This document shows, piece after piece, positions 18,115 through 22,524 of a stretch of DNA of 64,000 bases (its first letter is position 1; the number at the start of each line of letters is the position of its first letter). The DNA lies in NCBI GenBank assembly GCA_963664625.1, contig OY761541.1, positions 2,736,174 to 2,800,173 of the forward strand, read 5' to 3'. Source of the stretch: Dehalococcoidia bacterium. Its GTDB lineage: Bacteria; Chloroflexota; Dehalococcoidia; Lucifugimonadales; UBA3495. A program made the translations under genes and the position numbers. Below the pieces are notes generated by a model. The model did not search any database and was not told where the DNA came from. It worked only from the letters and a program-made list of their open reading frames with translations.

Positions 18115-18705
18115 CTATTCCGGCGCCCTGTTGAAACGGTTCATGGCCGCGTCGATACCTTCTTCCATCATGCAGTTGATGGCTTCGATTACCCGGGCCT
18201 CGGCATCGTCGATTACCTTGGCCTCATCTTCCGAGAAGCGGCCCAATACGTGGGACACCCAGTCCTCTCCTGGGGCGGGCGGGCCAATTCCAATGCGAAT
18301 CCTGGGGAAGTTCTGAGTATGAATCGTTGATATGATGGAGCGGATGCCGTTATGTCCGCCATCGCTGCCCGATGGTCTTATGCGCAGCCTCCCGACGTCC
18401 AGTTCCATGTCATCGTAAACGATGACCAACTCTTGAGGCTTGACGCCGAACCGGGCCATCAGATACTCGATACATTCCCCGCTGTTGTTGACGAAGGTGC
18501 GAGGCTTGGCAAGCACCACCGGCTGCCCGCTGCGGTGTCCCTGCCCCAATACCGCTTTGGCGCGCTTGTCGGACTGGCGGATTCCCCATATCTCGCCCAG
18601 CTTGTCTACAAAACGAAACCCCAGGTTGTGGCGCGTGCCCTGGTAGCGGGCACCGGGGTTGCCCAAACCAACGATGACAAGCATTGGGGTGCGGGACTCG
18701 GTCAA
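18115..18705 (-). CDS. pth: Peptidyl-tRNA hydrolase
   Basis: IVGLGNPG, TRHNLGF, KPRTFVNNSG, GGHNG. Confidence 0.97.
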   Translation of the reverse strand: MTESRTPMLVIVGLGNPGARYQGTRHNLGFRFVDKLGEIWGIRQSDKRAKAVLGQGHRSGQPVVLAKPRTFVNNSGECIEYLMARFGVKPQELVIVYDDMELDVGRLRIRPSGSDGGHNGIRSIISTIHTQNFPRIRIGIGPPAPGEDWVSHVLGRFSEDEAKVIDDAEARVIEAINCMMEEGIDAAMNRFNRAPE

Positions 18706-18898
18706 TTGACCGGCTCCGTTGAACGCTGGTCCAACATGGCGAGGAAGGCGTCTTCATCAAGCACTTCCGTCCCCAGACGGTTGGCAGTGTCGAGCTTGGA
18801 GCCGGCGGACTCGCCCGCCACCAAGTAGGTCGTCTTGCGGGTTACCGAAGAGGTTACGGAGCCGCCCATAGCCTTGATTCGCGCCTCGGCTTCGCGTG
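18702..18898 (-). pseudogene. Displaced native 3' end of ligA (partial BRCT), in frame with an AT-rich ORF starting up to 19028
   Basis: [28 protein letters not shown]...DEDAFLAML duplicates the BRCT end of ligA at 20530-20690; host-like GC; overlaps pth start. Confidence 0.85.
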
Positions 18899-19120
18899 AG
18901 TCTTTGTTTCGCATATACTGATTAAATACTGTTATAGCAGCATCCATGTATTGAAACGTGGTGCCCCCAGCTTCCGTAATCTTGATGTTTCCCTCCGTAT
19001 TCTGTGGTGGTTTCGACGCAGAATGCAAGCAGGGCTAACATCAGACTTACATTTGCTTGGGCAACGCTTTATTCTTGGGAATTATATACAGTCTTACACA
19101 GGTCGTATTTTGGAGGGTAG

Positions 19121-19564
19121 ATGTCGAATATCATATCAATACATGAAGTGCCATCTCAGTCTAATCCTCGCAACACCTATACTGTCACGATTTATGACAC
19201 GCATGCGTCCTGTTCGTGCCCTGCGTGGAAGAAATCGACATTGTCCACAAAAGAACGCGTTTGCAAGCATGTGGAGAGCATAACGGGTGAGTTGCGAAAA
19301 GGTGACGCAAAACTCACTGATGCGGAATCAGCATGGGTAATACGAAAACTGCTTGGCACGACTGAGAAGAATTTCCGATCTATGGCTGATGCGGTTGAAT
19401 GGGAACTTTTGCACGATGATTCTCTGTCCAGATACGAGCAAATGTTGGCAAGCAACGTCATTGAAACTTTACGAGGAGGACGGAGATGGGACGATGATGA
19501 GCCTCCGGGACCGGACGCACAACAAGCGTTAAGTCTTATCCTAAGAGCACTGAAAAAAGAGTAG
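19121..19564 (+). CDS. SWIM zinc-finger protein
   Basis: YTV...CSCPAW...CKHV; SD ggagg; AT-rich. Confidence 0.8.
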   Translation: MSNIISIHEVPSQSNPRNTYTVTIYDTHASCSCPAWKKSTLSTKERVCKHVESITGELRKGDAKLTDAESAWVIRKLLGTTEKNFRSMADAVEWELLHDDSLSRYEQMLASNVIETLRGGRRWDDDEPPGPDAQQALSLILRALKKE

Positions 19565-19566
19565 AC

Positions 19567-19702
19567 CTTATCGGCAGATGCCCTAAATCTCTCCCAATCT
19601 TGTCTATGCAACGGGACTCCCAAGTTGTGGCGTGTCCCTCGTAGCAGGCTCCGGATTGCCCAAGCCAACGATGGCAAGCATTGGAGTGCGGGATTCGGTC
19701 AA
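19567..19702 (-). pseudogene. Degenerate duplicate of the pth 5' end
   Basis: Aligns by eye to 18565-18705 (ttgaccgaatcccgcactccaatgcttgccatcgttggcttgggcaatccgg...gccacaacttggg) with indels. Confidence 0.85.
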
Positions 19703-20160
19703 TTGACCAGCTCCGCTGTGCGTTGGTTCAACATTCGTTCCCAGTATTGCTCGGCGAAATTCTTGAAGTCCTCTTCACTGGCGTAATGGTCATGGGGAAC
19801 ATAACGCCAATCCCATTGTGGAACTTCATACCATTCGCTTTTTGTCTTATTCCATTGCCAATCGGTGATCTGAACGTGAACAAACAAGTCTCTCTGTCGA
19901 GTTGGGGTCCCCATGATGGTTGGGAAAAACATTTCTCGTTCGATGAGACGGAAAGCACATAGCTCATCTTCACGCTGACTCAATACCCCACGATACCTAT
20001 ACTTCAAGGGACCCGTCGCCACGCCTGTGAACGCAGAGACCTCTTTCCATCCACGCATTGTCGGATGTGGATATGCGAAAGTAGAGTTTGAATTTCCCGC
20101 TGTTTTCGGGATGTCGACCTTATGTTCTCCAATAGGGAACCATTGTATATTTTTGGGCAT
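19699..20160 (-). CDS. Hypothetical protein ending in a LigA-like tail
   Basis: 153-aa Trp-rich ORF; C-terminus MLNQRTAELVN matches MLDQRSTEPVN at 18702. Confidence 0.6.
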   Translation of the reverse strand: MPKNIQWFPIGEHKVDIPKTAGNSNSTFAYPHPTMRGWKEVSAFTGVATGPLKYRYRGVLSQREDELCAFRLIEREMFFPTIMGTPTRQRDLFVHVQITDWQWNKTKSEWYEVPQWDWRYVPHDHYASEEDFKNFAEQYWERMLNQRTAELVN

Positions 20161-20183
20161 TGTTCGGTTCTCGTATGATTAAG

Positions 20184-20450
20184 TTAAGTCGAAGGAGAAA
20201 CTGATTCCAAGTAATATTCCATGAACAAAGCGTCAGCTCCAGATAAGACCGGTTTCTCACCAGAGCGGACGAAGACTCGAGTGATATGTTTACAAACTCG
20301 GACTCCATCCTTGAGTTTGAACTTCCAATCAGGGCATGAACAAGACCAACCATTGATATCGTCGGTAATAACCACGTAATCGTCTATGGAAGACCCCTTT
20401 ACAGTCCATAGGTTTCCTTCCCGCCATGTGACGGCGAGAAGCTCATTCAT
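20184..20450 (-). CDS. SWIM zinc-finger protein
   Basis: YVV...WSCSCPDW...CKHI; start overlaps ligA stop, SD ggagg. Confidence 0.8.
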
Positions 20451-22524
20451 GGATGGTCTTTTCCTCCATGTTTTTGACATTCTTGATGTTGCCATCATTG
20501 GTGTAATCAACTACACCAGATTCGTTCAACATGGCAAGGAAGGCTGACTCATCCAGTATTATAGTACCCAAGCGGTTAGCATCGGCTAGTTTGGATCCCG
20601 GTGACTGTCCAGCGACTAAGAATGTCGTGTTACGAGACACTGACGAATTGACGGAACCGCCCATCGCCTTGATACGATCCTCTGCTTCTCGACGAAGGAA
20701 GGCCGATAGTGTACCGGTTACGACAAAGTTTTTTCCCGTCCATGGAAGGTTGGCCTTGGATGAGTTTGAGATTTCATGGGAAAGCGCAATACCGGCACCC
20801 TCCAATTTCTTTAGGACTTCTAAGTTATGAGGAACTGCGAAGTAATCCACGATACTTTTGGCGATTTTGGGCCCTATCGGGGGAGCCATAAGATCATTCT
20901 GAGTTGCTTCGTCGAACTTCTTGATGCTGGGATACCTTTGGGTGAGCGTTTCTGCAATTTCGGAACCAACATGGGGAATGCCTAGGGCAAATAAAATGCG
21001 ATGTAGAGGCCTATGGCGACTGGCATCAATACTGGACAATATGTTACTGGCCAGCAGCTCTCCCATACCTTCTAATGGCAACAGATCATCCCTAACTAGA
21101 TAGTACAGATCGGCAACATCTTTGATTAGTCCCTCGTCGATGAGGACTTTGCACCACTGTTCCCCTAACCCATCAATGTCCATAGCACCCTTGCTGACGA
21201 AATGCTTGAGCAGCTCAAAGAACTGTACTGGGCACGAGCCGTTGGGGCAGCGATGCATAGCATCAGATTCGGATTTGATCACTCTGGAACGGCAGTCAGG
21301 ACATTCGGATGGCATTCGGAATGCCTTCTCTTGGCCGGTCCGTTTGGCAACGATTGGTCCGATGACTTGGGGAATCACGTCTCCCGCCCGTTCCACAACA
21401 ACCCAATCGCCGATACGGATGTCTCTACGGACAATATTTTCCTCGTTGTGCAACGAAGCCTGCTGCACGGTAGCGCCACTGACAATGACCGGTTCCAGGA
21501 TGGCATAAGGGTTTAAGCTCCCAGTACGGCCAACGTTGATGCCAATTTCGCGCAATTCGGTGACCGCCTGCTCGGCGGGAAACTTGAAGGCGATGGCCCA
21601 CCGGGGTTCCCGGCCCACTACGCCCAGCGCGTTCTGGTAGGCGAAGGGCGACACTTTGATCACCACTCCGTCCACCTCGTAGGGCAGGTCGTGGCGCTTT
21701 TCCAGCCAACTATAGTAGTAGTCGCTCGCCTCCTGAAGGGTGCGGCACAGCTTGTTTTCAGGATTGACGCGGAACCCGGCGTTGCCCATAAAGTCAAGGG
21801 CATCCCAATGGGACTCGATCCCTCCCGCTTCATCGTGATTGCCCAGCGAATATACCCACATCTGCATGTTGCGGGACGCGGTGATTTTGGGGTCCAACTG
21901 CCGCACGCTGCCGGCCCCGGTGTTCCGGGGGTTGGCGTATAGGGGTTCGCCCCGTTCTGCCCTTTCTTCGTTGAGCCTGCGGAACTCCGCGACGGGCAGG
22001 TAGACTTCCCCGCGCACCTCGAGGCGAGGGTGGACGGAGTTTTCCAAAGACAAGGGTATGGAGCGTATGGTACGGAGGTTCGACGTTACGTCCTCGCCGG
22101 TAACTCCGTCGCCCCTGGTCGCGCCCTGTGCCAATACGCCGTTTTCATAGACCAAGCTTACCGCCAAGCCGTCGATTTTCAACTCGCACACCAAGTCAAA
22201 GTCGGCGTCATCCAATAGTCCCTTCACCCGCCGGTGCCAATCCTCCAATTCCTCCTGGTCGAAGGCGTTGCGGAGGCTCAGCATGGGCAAGCGGTGCTGG
22301 ACCTGAGAGAAACCTTCGGCGGGAGCGGCCCCCACGCGCTGGGTAGGGGAATCGGAGGTTACCAGTTCGGGGTGCAGTTCCTCGAGCCGGCGCAGTTCCA
22401 CCATCAGCCGGTCATACTCGGCGTCGGGCACCGTGGGGTCGTCCAGGACGTAGTAACGGTAGTTGTGATGGTTGAGTTCCCGCCGCAGTTTAGCTACCCG
22501 GTTGGTTACTTGGTCGTCCGCCAT
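20443..22524 (-). CDS. ligA: NAD-dependent DNA ligase (mosaic: AT-rich 3' half)
   Basis: ELKIDG, ATRGDG, C4 zinc finger, HhH, BRCT. Confidence 0.96.

What the first reader, a model, noticed from the sequence alone, without database searches (positions are those of the whole stretch)
18702..21560. ligA 3' half replaced by a foreign allele; ligA-pth junction present twice
Seen: ligA turns AT-rich below about 21560 and ends in a new tail overlapping a SWIM gene. The host-like BRCT end sits 1.6 kb away, still overlapping pth. In between lies a second, decayed ligA-tail/pth-5' junction (19567-19735). An essential gene was thus rescued by a ~1.1-kb replacement, far longer than normal att-site repair, and no integrase is visible. 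Inference: an element that targets ligA and carries its own ligase C-terminus, repeated integration at this junction, or homology-facilitated illegitimate recombination.
Basis: partly seen in the sequence, partly recalled or inferred. Interest (0 to 1): 0.7.

Follow-up and report, generated by a model that had tools for sequence, protein, structure and literature searches.

The report
Chimeric DNA ligase gene, recombination scars
In this uncultured marine bacterium the back half of the essential DNA ligase gene was swapped for a very divergent copy that arrived with a few small foreign genes, leaving leftover gene ends behind; it is a well-preserved scar of known recombination processes, not a new mobile element.

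Summary
Up to codon 348, ligA (20443..22602, minus strand) matches its genus: 93% aa identity to G001, dS 0.53. From window 21558 (codon 349, the adenylation/OB boundary) it is a divergent, lower-GC allele: 66-70% aa, synonymous sites saturated, GC3 0.8 to 0.5.

Relative to three same-genus genomes there is a 1,627-nt insert (18897-20523). It holds a SWIM gene plus an orphan 153-aa gene, a frameshifted genus-like ligA-tail/pth-5' copy (19570-19735), and a second SWIM gene. It is followed by the host's own last 65 ligA codons (92% nt to G001) and an intact pth.

Independent short-read contigs from three samples reproduce all junctions checked.

I found no integrase or transposase within 6-36 kb. 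Both SWIM cassettes occur at other loci in relatives, and none of 202 other family genomes has them beside ligA.

Best reading (about 0.5): at least two rounds of homology-anchored recombination with illegitimate or microhomology joints (HFIR, or insertion with long target duplication) at a ligA-pth islet. A ligA-targeting element is not supported.

Caveat: tree topology alone separates the two halves only marginally (AU p 0.038-0.61). Branch length, dS, GC3 and the displaced remnant carry the case. The scan noted similar gene-end scars before on other DNA.

The parts
21559..22602 (-). ligA 5' part, host type (codons 1-348: Ia and adenylation domains)
   Evidence: 88-95% aa identity to same-genus LigA in sliding windows. 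92.6% to G001 over aa 30-380. dS 0.53, dN 0.037. Nested in the genus clade at 100*.
20524..21558 (-). ligA 3' part, divergent lower-GC allele 'A' (codons 349-693: OB, Zn finger, HhH, BRCT)
   Evidence: Break at 21558, chi2 120.7. 66-70% aa to G001-3, while those three share 84-90% with each other. pS 0.787, dN 0.213. GC3 about 0.5. End branch 0.48 against 0.047. Nothing closer than 72% in 5.8 billion proteins. At most 44% in phage and plasmid records. Pfam OB, ZBD, HHH_2 and BRCT domains all present.
20443..20523 (-). new LigA tail: 26 codons plus stop, read from the cassette leader and, out of frame, the first 36 nt of the SWIM gene
   Evidence: Homology to relatives' ligA stops at 20524. Sequence and frames seen.
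20184..20480 (-). SWIM zinc-finger gene of cassette 1 (98 aa from the ATG at 20480; the longest ORF starts at 20510)
   Evidence: Pfam SWIM 7.1e-5. 56% identical to a 98-aa gene in G161, which fixes the start. Found in 3 of 203 family genomes. Unique in G000.
19699..20160 (-). ORF153, orphan gene of cassette 1; its last 8-11 codons and its stop are the old ligA tail (part of copy B)
   Evidence: No Pfam, PHROG, PADLOC or NCBIfam match. Only 5 representatives at E<=1e-10 among 1.84 billion, self included. Found next to the SWIM gene in G161 too. AF2 model pLDDT 84.5: long antiparallel sheet plus C-terminal helix. No fold match: Foldseek none at E<=1e-3, VIA best Z 4.7.
19570..19735 (-). copy B: decayed ligA tail (about 11 codons), 18-nt spacer and pth codons 1 to about 38
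   Evidence: Repeats D2, D10 and D13. 84% to the host junction with two 1-nt deletions; 78-81% to G001-3; other genera align only in part or not at all. Limits set by the blastn match to G001.
19075..19569 (+). SWIM147 unit (gene 19121..19564, plus strand)
   Evidence: Pfam SWIM 3.6e-5. 82.4% nt over 495 nt and 81% aa to a gene at another locus of same-genus G003. dS 0.58, dN 0.10. 22 relatives at 54-79% in public assemblies. Pieces 96-98% identical in an unrelated marine run, X1.
18897..19074 (.). R3: 178-nt AT-rich spacer of unknown origin (5' part of a probably spurious 108-aa ORF, 18702..19028)
   Evidence: No homology to ligA or to relatives. The X1 copy carries a 1-nt insertion and a 1-nt deletion here, arguing against coding.
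18702..18896 (-). copy C: displaced host ligA end (last 64 codons plus stop, BRCT)
   Evidence: 90.8% aa and 92.2% nt to G001. Homology starts exactly at ...SR|EAE. dS 0.31, dN 0.058, no frameshift. BRCT 7e-11.
18115..18705 (-). pth, intact, host type
   Evidence: Pept_tRNA_hydro 1.3e-63. 94.9% aa to G001. dS 0.62, dN 0.023.

Best explanation
This is a layered recombination scar at the ligA-pth junction of a SAR202-type Chloroflexota genome. It is not an autonomous element.

DNA from relatives entered by recombination that was anchored on one side in ligA homology. On the other side it was closed by an illegitimate or microhomology joint. That is homology-facilitated illegitimate recombination, the process that also yields 'insertion with long target duplication'. 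At least two source layers are visible.

(i) A genus-level layer. It consists of a ligA-tail/pth-5' fragment (B), the SWIM147 unit and spacer R3, joined to host ligA at codon 637. This displaced the host's last 65 codons downstream, where they still precede an intact pth.

(ii) A much more divergent layer. It consists of ligA codons 349-693 (A) plus the SWIM108-ORF153 pair.
- Its left end is an in-frame crossover at the adenylation/OB domain boundary.
- Its right end is a 9-nt identity (ATGTTGAAC) between the 3' end of ORF153 and the ligA tail.

Result: a working chimeric LigA (host catalytic half; foreign OB/Zn/HhH/BRCT half with a 26-aa new tail), three small accessory genes, and two dead gene-end copies.

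Shown: the anatomy, the foreignness of A, the genus-like nature of B, C and SWIM147, and the absence of recombinase genes.

Inferred: the order and number of events, whether they happened in this lineage or in a donor that passed the whole 2.66-kb block on at once, and the enzymology (RecA-dependent anchor plus end joining).
For: Left border:
- A sharp switch at 21558, immediately after 60 nt with 2 mismatches, including a 29-nt run identical to G001.
- The frame is kept and all LigA domains are intact.

A is foreign:
- aa identity to the genus is 66-70%, against 84-90% among G001-3.
- pS is 0.787, against dS 0.53 in the N half.
- GC3 is 0.5 against 0.8.
- On the C half G001-3 form a clade without G000: 100/100* on protein, 95/95* on DNA.

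The host end was displaced, not diverged. Copy C is 92% nt identical to G001, with no frameshift, and starts abruptly at codon 637.

Insert limits: G001-3 are colinear with 17201-18896 and 20524-22543, and their ligA abuts pth.

Separate sources:
- B is 84% to the host junction and SWIM147 has dS 0.58 to G003. Both are genus-level figures.
- A is saturated.
- Run X1, from another study, holds R3-SWIM147-B at 96-98% but gave no piece for 19804-21140.

The 9-nt identity at both ends of cassette 1 lies within the 3-10 bp range reported for HFIR joints (passages of PMC6382021).

Inserts flanked by long, variable target duplications without mobility genes are a documented class (passages of PMC2853133).

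No recombinase was found within 6-36 kb.

The same junction holds a HicA cassette in G021. In G017, ligA carries a 1.9-kb insert with a duplication of about 90 nt.
Against: - No donor was found: nothing closer than 72% to A in 5.8 billion proteins. The donor-side sequence at each joint is therefore unknown, and the R3|codon-637 joint cannot be checked for microhomology.
- Recombination between sequences about 30% diverged is very inefficient.
- The topology tests are weak. G000+G001 on the C half has AU p 0.038 (DNA) and 0.068 (protein). In the 37-row quick run the constrained tree was even better, p 0.61. On the N half the rival topology is not rejected, p 0.22.
- The flanking repeats are only 71% (168 nt) and 84% (166 nt) identical, unlike the 90-100% of published fresh long target duplications.
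- Copy C shows no extra decay while B is frameshifted, so B and C cannot be twins of one recent in-situ duplication. This forces a multi-step or donor-side history that I cannot order.
- The absence of cassette 1 from X1 rests on low-depth contigs.
Confidence: 0.5

Rival explanations
1. Campbell-type single crossover. A circular DNA (excised islet, plasmid or phage fragment) carried a ligA-3'/pth-5' segment and integrated by host homologous recombination. That duplicated the segment on both sides of its cargo. A later deletion trimmed the right-hand copy to 65 codons.
For: The layout is what insertion-duplication gives: on the left a complete ligA followed by a truncated pth 5' end (B), on the right a truncated ligA 3' end (C) followed by a complete pth, so both essential genes survive. 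G017 shows a comparable duplication of about 90 nt around a 1.9-kb insert inside ligA.
Against: With the crossover at codon 349, the right copy should retain host codons 349-636. They are gone, so an extra 0.86-kb deletion ending exactly at the R3 border is needed. B and C differ by 16% plus frameshifts while C looks undecayed. No circular form or second copy exists in G000.
Confidence: 0.15
2. Remnant of a site-specific integrative element that targets the ligA 3' end and carries a replacement ligase end. Its integrase and most of its cargo would have been lost since.
For: The architecture resembles islands that insert in a gene end and restore it. Three copies of the ligA end suggest repeated use of one site. 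Related scars at ligase gene ends were noted elsewhere in this scan (unchecked).
Against: - No integrase or transposase domain within 6-36 kb.
- The replaced stretch is 1.1 kb and ends at no repeat.
- The flanking repeats are diverged coding homology (71%), not att cores.
- The cassettes sit at other loci in G161 and G003.
- 0 of 202 other family genomes have them at ligA.
- No close A-type ligase in 50,697 phage or 72,556 plasmid records.
Confidence: 0.1
3. Cassette-driven insertion. The SWIM108-ORF153 pair moved itself into the ligA tail, either transposon-like with a 9-bp target duplication or homing-like with co-conversion of the donor's flanking ligA sequence.
For: An exact 9-nt direct repeat (ATGTTGAAC) lies at both cassette ends. 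In G161 the pair lies inside a 3.55-kb segment bounded by 27-nt inverted repeats (93%) that begins with an IS1595-family transposase. A 1.1-kb co-converted flank is what homing would leave.
Against: - No inverted repeats or transposase in the window: the G161 repeat has 0 matches with up to 3 mismatches.
- The ORF153 model resembles no nuclease: best Z 4.7, Foldseek none at E<=1e-3.
- Both 9-mers are ligA codons (M-L-N) that are expected there by homology.
- The pair is single-copy in G000 and in G161.
Confidence: 0.08
4. Assembly chimera of two related populations in a metagenome-assembled genome.
For: Single-contig environmental genome with 4.27% estimated contamination. The composition switch lies inside a conserved gene.
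Against: Two independent Logan contigs (13.1 and 12.9 kb) span 17800-22800 with 0 differences. A third sample gives 0-difference pieces across four junctions. A simple chimera would not return to host sequence at a non-homologous position and leave a displaced host tail.
Confidence: 0.02
5. In-situ duplication of the ligA 3' part followed by fast divergence of one copy.
For: On the C half the allele still groups nearest the genus: sister to G001-3 at 91/89. Best database hits are genus LigAs at 70-72%.
Against: The working copy, which is under selection, is the diverged one (dN 0.213, synonymous sites saturated, GC3 shifted). The dead copy is conserved at 92% to G001. That is the reverse of what duplication and decay predicts.
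Confidence: 0.02

Closest known systems
Insertion with long target duplication (Kobayashi group; Furuta, Abe & Kobayashi 2010, PMC2853133; passages read)
   Same: A small gene unit with no integrase or transposase sits between two direct copies (over 30 bp, variable length) of a sequence that is single in related genomes. The insert has lower GC than the host. The target overlaps a gene's 3' end.
   Different: - The cargo is SWIM and orphan genes, not restriction-modification genes.
- The two copies are 71% and 84% identical, not 90-100%.
- The upstream copy is part of a 1.1-kb divergent allele that replaced half of an essential gene.
- A second junction copy is nested inside.
Homology-facilitated illegitimate recombination (de Vries & Wackernagel 2002; Prudhomme et al. 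2002; Meier & Wackernagel 2003, as cited in PMC6382021; passages read)
   Same: One homologous anchor (ligA upstream of 21558), foreign DNA carried in, the far end closed at a short microhomology (9 nt here; 3-10 bp reported), and recipient DNA next to the anchor replaced.
   Different: This is inferred from a natural genome, not observed. Competence of the organism is unknown. The donor is unknown, so only one joint can be inspected. More than one event is needed.
Genomic islands that integrate in the end of a protein gene and restore it (for example SGI1 at the 3' end of trmE, dusA-targeting islands; PMC8409611, abstract seen in the search listing)
   Same: An essential or conserved gene stays intact because incoming DNA supplies a new end, and the old end is left beside the insert.
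   Different: Those use a tyrosine integrase and short att cores, and they recur at the same site in many genomes. Here no integrase, att core or recurrence was found.
Displaced 'orphan' C-terminal modules downstream of cdiA/rhs toxin genes (recalled, no call)
   Same: The 3' part of a long gene is replaced by an incoming divergent 3' part plus small companion genes. The old 3' end is pushed downstream as a fragment.
   Different: Those loci are diversifying toxin/immunity systems. Here the gene is a housekeeping ligase, and no evidence links the companions to it.
Mosaic housekeeping or target genes made by interspecies recombination (for example pbp genes of streptococci and neisseriae; recalled, no call)
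   Same: An in-frame block of a divergent allele inside an essential gene.
   Different: Classical mosaics have homologous crossovers on both sides and leave no displaced remnant and no inserted genes.

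Membership tests
NAD+-dependent DNA ligase LigA (the chimeric gene) | Full-length match to the LigA equivalog above its cut-off, with Ia, adenylation, OB, Zn-finger, HhH and BRCT domains | tested here: met
   NF005932 at 837.6 bits (cut-off 369), positions 2-664 of 664. Pfam PF22745, PF01653, PF03120, PF03119, PF12826 and PF00533 all present.
Site-specific integrative element at a gene 3' end | Integrase or recombinase gene in or beside the insert | tested here: not met
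   No recombinase or transposase family in 21 of 21 ORFs of 110 aa or more between 6 and 36 kb, nor in the 9 proteins (7 in or overlapping the finding, 2 flanking).
Site-specific integrative element at a gene 3' end | Near-identical att core repeated at both ends of the insert | tested here: not met
   The flanking repeats are coding homology at 71% (168 nt) and 84-87%. The only exact repeat is 9 nt.
Site-specific integrative element at a gene 3' end | Same cargo at the same target in other genomes | tested here: not met
   ORF153 in 2 of 201 genomes, the SWIM108 family in 3 of 203 and SWIM147 in 6 of 203, G000 included. None of the others is beside ligA.
Insertion with long target duplication | Insert absent from related genomes whose flanks are colinear; the repeat aligns once with the empty site; repeat over 30 bp; no mobility genes | tested here: met
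   G001-3 are colinear with 17201-18896 and 20524-22543, and the insert is 18897-20523. The repeats are 168 nt and 166 nt. No mobility genes.
Insertion with long target duplication | The two repeat copies are near-identical (a fresh duplication of the target) | tested here: not met
   71% and 84% here, against mostly over 90% in the paper's tables. The upstream copy belongs to a foreign allele.
Homology-facilitated illegitimate recombination | One-sided homologous anchor next to the foreign block | tested here: met
   Break at 21558, preceded by a 29-nt identity run and 60 nt with 2 mismatches to G001.
Homology-facilitated illegitimate recombination | Microhomology of a few bp at the illegitimate joint | tested here: inconclusive
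   A 9-nt identity at the cassette 1/B joint. The R3|codon-637 joint cannot be judged without the donor sequence.
Homology-facilitated illegitimate recombination | Uptake of foreign DNA (transformation) and RecA dependence | not testable with these tools
IS1595-family transposon with passenger genes (context of the pair in G161) | Terminal inverted repeats and a DDE transposase flanking the cargo | tested here: not met
   Present in G161: 27-nt inverted repeats at 93%, PF12762 1.8e-36. The window has 0 matches to the repeat with up to 3 mismatches and no transposase.
Integron gene cassette | intI nearby and an attC hairpin at the cassette end | tested here: inconclusive
   No integrase domain within 6-36 kb. 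The 9-mer contains a GTTRRRY-like word (consensus recalled). No attC search or fold was run.
Homing endonuclease cassette | A recognisable nuclease fold or motif in a cassette protein | tested here: inconclusive
   No Pfam, PHROG or NCBIfam family. The ORF153 model has no match above noise: Foldseek none at E<=1e-3, VIA best Z 4.7. The SWIM proteins were not folded.

The most novel reading that the evidence does not exclude
The ligase gene end is a preferred landing site for a class of integrase-less small cassettes. These would travel with a captured ligA-homologous arm and integrate by the host's own recombination, replacing the gene end as they go. The SWIM zinc-finger proteins present in both cassettes might act as the DNA-targeting or recombination-promoting factor. 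Alternatively, the foreign LigA C-terminal half and the SWIM108-ORF153 pair might be a co-adapted module transferred as one unit.

Hints in favour:
- Three genomes of this family have inserts in or just after ligA: G000, G017 and G021.
- Both G000 cassettes encode SWIM proteins.
- This scan earlier noted a jumbo phage with two genes inserted between two copies of its ligase gene end.
Probability: 0.08. Interest if true: 0.75.

Novelty: new member of a known kind. Interest (0 to 1): 0.38.

Why it matters
- It is an unusually legible natural example of how an essential gene survives illegitimate insertion. The crossover falls exactly at a domain boundary, so the cell runs on a chimeric ligase whose DNA-clamping half is about 30% different from the native one. 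The native end is still there for comparison.
- It documents HFIR-like, long-target-duplication-type gene flow in uncultured marine SAR202-type Chloroflexota, where mobile-element biology is poorly known.
- It flags the ligA-pth junction as a small flexible islet in that family.
- It brings up a very rare two-gene module (SWIM protein plus a 150-aa sheet-and-helix protein) of unknown function that travels between genomes.
- It does not reveal a new kind of mobile element.

Tried and rejected
Donor hunt:
- The search for related loci in genome contigs with the C half gave only distant ligases, 35-44%.
- Neither JGI metagenome scan found a cassette in context: SWIM108 found no relative, and the SWIM147 family gave one weak 45% partial match on a 1.4-kb contig. 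The alignment of the ORF153 family was too diverged to scan with.
- The viral-contig scan for SWIM108 gave two weak SWIM-core hits only.
- The best phage and plasmid ligases reach 44%.
- The 5.8-billion-protein search topped out at 72%.

Function of ORF153:
- No family in Pfam, PHROGs, PADLOC or NCBIfam.
- Foldseek against the PDB gave none at E<=1e-3.
- VIA wide gave best Z 4.7, which is noise level.
- The ESM Atlas gave no usable hit.
- The G000 and G161 cassettes are too diverged at DNA level to define their ends.

Other negative or unfinished checks:
- The promoter/terminator scan of 18500-20700 found no more than chance: 2 against 2.6 expected. How pth is now transcribed is therefore open.
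- The short 'GNIKN'-type repeats near three junctions (D6 and D18) were considered as element ends. They were dropped as probable chance, or as the native C-terminus of the ORF153 family.
- A HicA cassette in G021 has no flanking repeat.
- Complex prediction for SWIM108 with ORF153 never ran because the queue was full, so whether the two proteins bind is untested.
- Run X1 gave no contig for 19804-21140. With depth 2-5 this is not evidence of absence.
- The search of earlier findings near this place and by the ORF153 sequence returned nothing.

Full report
**Setting.** The window is G000:C1:2736174-2800173 of a single-contig 3.76-Mb environmental genome (97.8% complete, 4.27% contamination). 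LigA relatives at 66-67% identity carry source names such as SAR202 cluster, Dehalococcoidia and Chloroflexi, so the organism is probably a SAR202-type Chloroflexota bacterium. That is a hint from names, not a test.

**Anatomy.** All features below lie on the minus strand unless stated.
- ligA is 20443..22602 (719 aa). It has every LigA domain and scores 837.6 bits over the full length of the LigA equivalog.
- Three same-genus genomes (G001-G003) are colinear with window 17201-18896 and 20524-22543, and their ligA runs straight into pth. G000 therefore carries a 1,627-nt insert, 18897-20523.

Reading with the genes, the insert and its flanks are:
1. A new 26-codon LigA tail (20523 down to 20443) that ends 36 nt inside the next gene.
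2. A 98-aa SWIM zinc-finger gene (20480 down to 20184; Pfam SWIM 7.1e-5).
3. ORF153 (20160 down to 19699), whose last codons and stop are an old ligA tail.
4. Copy B (19735 down to 19570): about 11 ligA tail codons, the 18-nt spacer and pth codons 1 to about 38, with two 1-nt deletions.
5. On the plus strand, a 147-aa SWIM gene (19121..19564; SWIM 3.6e-5) within a 495-nt unit, 19075-19569.
6. A 178-nt AT-rich spacer, R3.
7. Copy C (18896 down to 18702): the host's last 64 ligA codons plus stop, followed by an intact pth (18115..18705).

The 3-kb block is unique in G000.

**The ligA 3' part is a foreign allele.**
- Against G001, a maximum chi-square scan puts the switch at window 21558, codon 349. 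Mismatch goes from 11.6% to 31.9%, chi2 120.7. That is the border between the adenylation domain (Pfam 97-344) and the OB fold (348-424).
- Amino-acid identity to G001/G002/G003 is 92.6/89.7/88.9% before the break and 69.6/67.6/66.0% after it.
- As a control, G001-G003 share 84-90% with each other in the C half, and other genera are 70-76% identical to them.
- Nei-Gojobori counts, G000 against G001: N half dS 0.53 and dN 0.037; C half pS 0.787 (saturated) and dN 0.213. The control, the second half of G001 against G002, gives dS 0.97 and dN 0.088.
- GC3 falls from about 0.8 to about 0.5. GC of the block is 0.44-0.54 against a window mean of 0.593.
- The decisive point is copy C. It is 90.8% aa and 92.2% nt identical to G001, but only 75% aa and 71% nt identical to the working tail. 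It begins abruptly at ...SR|EAE, codon 637.
- The native end was therefore displaced, not mutated. An in-situ duplication-and-divergence history predicts the opposite pattern, a conserved working copy and a decayed spare.

**Phylogeny, reported in full.**
- N half, protein, 37 rows: G000 is sister to G001 (96*) inside the genus clade (100*), end branch 0.047.
- C half: G000 falls in the same nine-row clade of four genera (95-97*), with an end branch of 0.48-0.49. G001-G003 form a clade without it: 97* in the quick run, 100/100* in the careful run.
- C half, codon positions 1+2: G000 is sister to G001-G003 (91/89). Their clade is 95/95*. The end branch is 0.19 against about 0.03.
- AU tests for holding G000 with G001 on the C half give p 0.038 (DNA) and 0.068 (protein, careful). 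In the 37-row quick run the constrained tree was even slightly better, p 0.61.
- On the N half the rival topology is not rejected, p 0.22.
- Topological incongruence is therefore marginal. The allele comes from a lineage near the genus but outside its sampled species, or from a copy that evolved long in a lower-GC setting.
- The case for replacement rests on branch length (5-10 fold), saturated synonymous sites, GC3 and the displaced remnant.
- No closer sequence exists in what I could search. The best of 5.8 billion proteins is 72%, and these are genus LigAs. The best phage or plasmid records reach 44%. Among 203 family genomes the best is 70%.

**Not an artefact.**
- Logan contigs of 13,116 nt (run X2) and 12,890 nt (X3) cover 17800-22800 with 0 differences.
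- Run X4, a third sample, gives 0-difference pieces 18699-19301, 19290-19701, 19678-20477 and 21089-21858. These bridge the C/R3, SWIM147/B and B/cassette 1 joints and the ligA switch.
- The three runs are from one study and may include the assembly's source, so this is support for the sequence rather than independent populations.
- Run X1, from another study (a marine metagenome), holds pieces covering 18973-19718 (R3, SWIM147, B) at 96-98% identity. Its pth and ligA-N pieces are about 92-93% identical.
- One X1 contig matches copy C up to 18887 and then runs on into normal-looking ligA sequence.
- X1 gave nothing for 19804-21140. At depth 2-5 that is not evidence of absence.

**The cassettes are not tied to ligA.**
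- ORF153 was found in 2 of 201 family genomes, G000 and G161. It found only itself in the word-indexed search. It has 5 representatives at E<=1e-10 among 1.84 billion, self included.
- In G161 the ORF153 homologue (29% identical) again follows a SWIM gene (56% identical). The pair lies 2.45 Mb from that genome's ligA.
- There it sits inside a 3.55-kb segment bounded by 27-nt inverted repeats (93%). The segment starts with an IS1595-family transposase (PF12762 1.8e-36) and is single-copy in G161.
- The window has no such repeat (0 matches with up to 3 mismatches).
- No recombinase or transposase domain was found in 21 of 21 ORFs scanned between 6 and 36 kb.
- The SWIM108 family was found in 3 of 203 family genomes.
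- SWIM147 has 22 relatives at 54-79% in public assemblies and occurs in 6 of 203 family genomes.
- In same-genus G003 the SWIM147 homologue is 81% aa and 82.4% nt identical over exactly window 19075-19569. It lies 306 kb from ligA, in another low-GC islet beside an amidohydrolase-like gene (unannotated; named from its sequence only) and a DUF429 gene.
- Its dS of 0.58 and dN of 0.10 show a real gene under selection, diverged about as much as core genes of the genus.

**Function of the small genes is unknown.**
- No PHROG beyond one unannotated family for SWIM108 (8.2e-6), and no PADLOC or NCBIfam family.
- The AlphaFold model of ORF153 (pLDDT 84.5, pTM 0.77) is a long four-stranded antiparallel sheet with a C-terminal helix.
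- It has no fold match above noise: Foldseek none at E<=1e-3, VIA best Z 4.7.

**Layers and order (inference).**
- Copy B is 84% identical to the host junction and 78-81% to G001-G003, while the host junction is 82-88% to G001-G003. Other genera align only over the conserved pth core or not at all. B is therefore genus-level DNA, like SWIM147.
- A, by contrast, is 64-74% identical to everything over the BRCT part.
- B carries frameshifts, yet copy C shows no extra decay (dS 0.31, dN 0.058, frame intact). B and C are therefore not twins of one recent in-situ duplication.
- The simplest history has at least two imports.
  - One brought B-SWIM147-R3 from a genus-level relative and joined R3 to host codon 637.
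  - The other brought A plus SWIM108-ORF153 from a far relative. Its homologous crossover lies just after a 29-nt run identical to G001 (21606-21578). Its far joint lies at a 9-nt identity, ATGTTGAAC, present both at the end of A's ligA homology and at the start of B.
- Equally possible, both steps happened in a donor, and G000 received the whole 2.66-kb block in one homology-anchored event that deleted host codons 349-636.
- Either way, the steps match two described processes.
  - Homology-facilitated illegitimate recombination: one anchor and a 3-10 bp microhomology at the other end (passages of PMC6382021).
  - 'Insertion with long target duplication': small gene units without mobility genes, flanked by duplications over 30 bp of a site that is single in relatives (passages of PMC2853133).
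- The differences from those descriptions are the low identity of the flanking copies (71% and 84%), the replacement of half an essential gene, and the nesting.

**A local hotspot?**
- Of 28 ligA loci whose downstream ORFs I listed (16 of them show pth within about 1.5 kb of ligA), two besides G000 carry extra DNA at this place.
- G021 has a HicA gene plus a 115-aa ORF between ligA and pth, at GC 0.50-0.56 against 0.63-0.70 in the flanks, with no flanking repeat.
- G017, compared with same-genus G056, has a 1.9-kb insert inside ligA carrying an RNase_T exonuclease-BRCT gene. It is flanked by a ligA duplication of about 90 nt that leaves two overlapping ORFs. G017 also has about 1.7 kb of extra DNA between ligA and pth.
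- These are different cargos without SWIM genes. They suggest a permissive site rather than a dedicated element.
- Earlier notes of this scan describe the same kind of scar at a jumbo-phage ligase gene end and at an archaeal rtcB end (unchecked AI notes). The first of these led me to the Furuta paper.

**Consequences.**
- The cell's only full ligA (one search finds just the gene and the remnant in G000) encodes a chimera. The NAD/adenylation half is native. The OB, Zn-finger (four Cys present), HhH and BRCT half is foreign, with a 26-residue new tail.
- pth is now separated from ligA by 1.7 kb that includes an opposite-strand gene. No promoter-like site beyond chance was found, so its transcription start is open.

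**Verdict.** The 'ligA-targeting element' reading is not supported. Homology-anchored illegitimate recombination at a small flexible islet is the best explanation (about 0.5), with a Campbell-type circle (0.15) and a decayed integrative element (0.1) as the main rivals. The finding is a clear, instructive member of a known kind of rearrangement. The rare SWIM-ORF153 module is the only truly unknown item.

Noticed in passing
L053 (G017:C117:4000-11500), about 2648-6572: In another genus of the family, ligA is split by a 1.9-kb lower-GC insert carrying an RNase_T exonuclease-BRCT gene (3524..4813, minus strand). The insert is flanked by a ligA duplication of about 90 nt, so an N-terminal ORF (547 aa) and a C-terminal ORF (281 aa) overlap by about 30-45 residues. 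A further 1.7 kb or so lies between ligA and pth. No other ligA was found in that 90%-complete genome.
   Followed up: partly
L016 (G021), 909-1462: A HicA toxin gene plus a 115-aa ORF (GC 0.50-0.56) sit between ligA and pth in a third genus, without flanking repeats.
   Followed up: partly
L055 (G161:C1:3520000-3534000), 5761-9307: A 3.55-kb segment bounded by 27-nt inverted repeats (93%). It begins with an IS1595-family transposase and carries the SWIM98-ORF147 pair plus a 186-aa gene. It looks like a transposon with passenger genes and is single-copy in that genome.
   Followed up: partly
window 23759-24747 (-): A nucleotidyltransferase (Polbeta, 4.3e-8) and HepT-like RNase (1.5e-31) toxin-antitoxin pair in a slightly lower-GC patch (0.52-0.54), 1.2 kb upstream of ligA.
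   Followed up: no
window 30858-35102 (+): A 1,159-aa protein with DUF499 and a Swt1-like HEPN domain, followed by a NYN-domain protein. This is a possible defence-type pair.
   Followed up: no
G023 (C13, C11, C6, C7), G003:C1:2656219-2658249, G012:C1:2141079-2143124, G021:C1:1000458-1002480: Several family genomes carry extra, deeply divergent LigA paralogues (about 46-53% identical; 767-aa frames in G023, at least four copies there). They form their own clade and are not the source of the G000 C half.
   Followed up: partly
L068 (G003:C1:4193841-4197278), about 1400-3100: The G003 copy of the SWIM147 gene lies in a low-GC islet (0.45-0.51) with a 77-aa ORF and a DUF429 gene, downstream of an amidohydrolase-like gene (unannotated; named from its sequence only).
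   Followed up: partly
window 19192-19677 (-): A 161-aa ORF antisense to SWIM147 starts in the frameshifted pth fragment of copy B. It is almost certainly spurious, but it could be mis-annotated as a gene.
   Followed up: no
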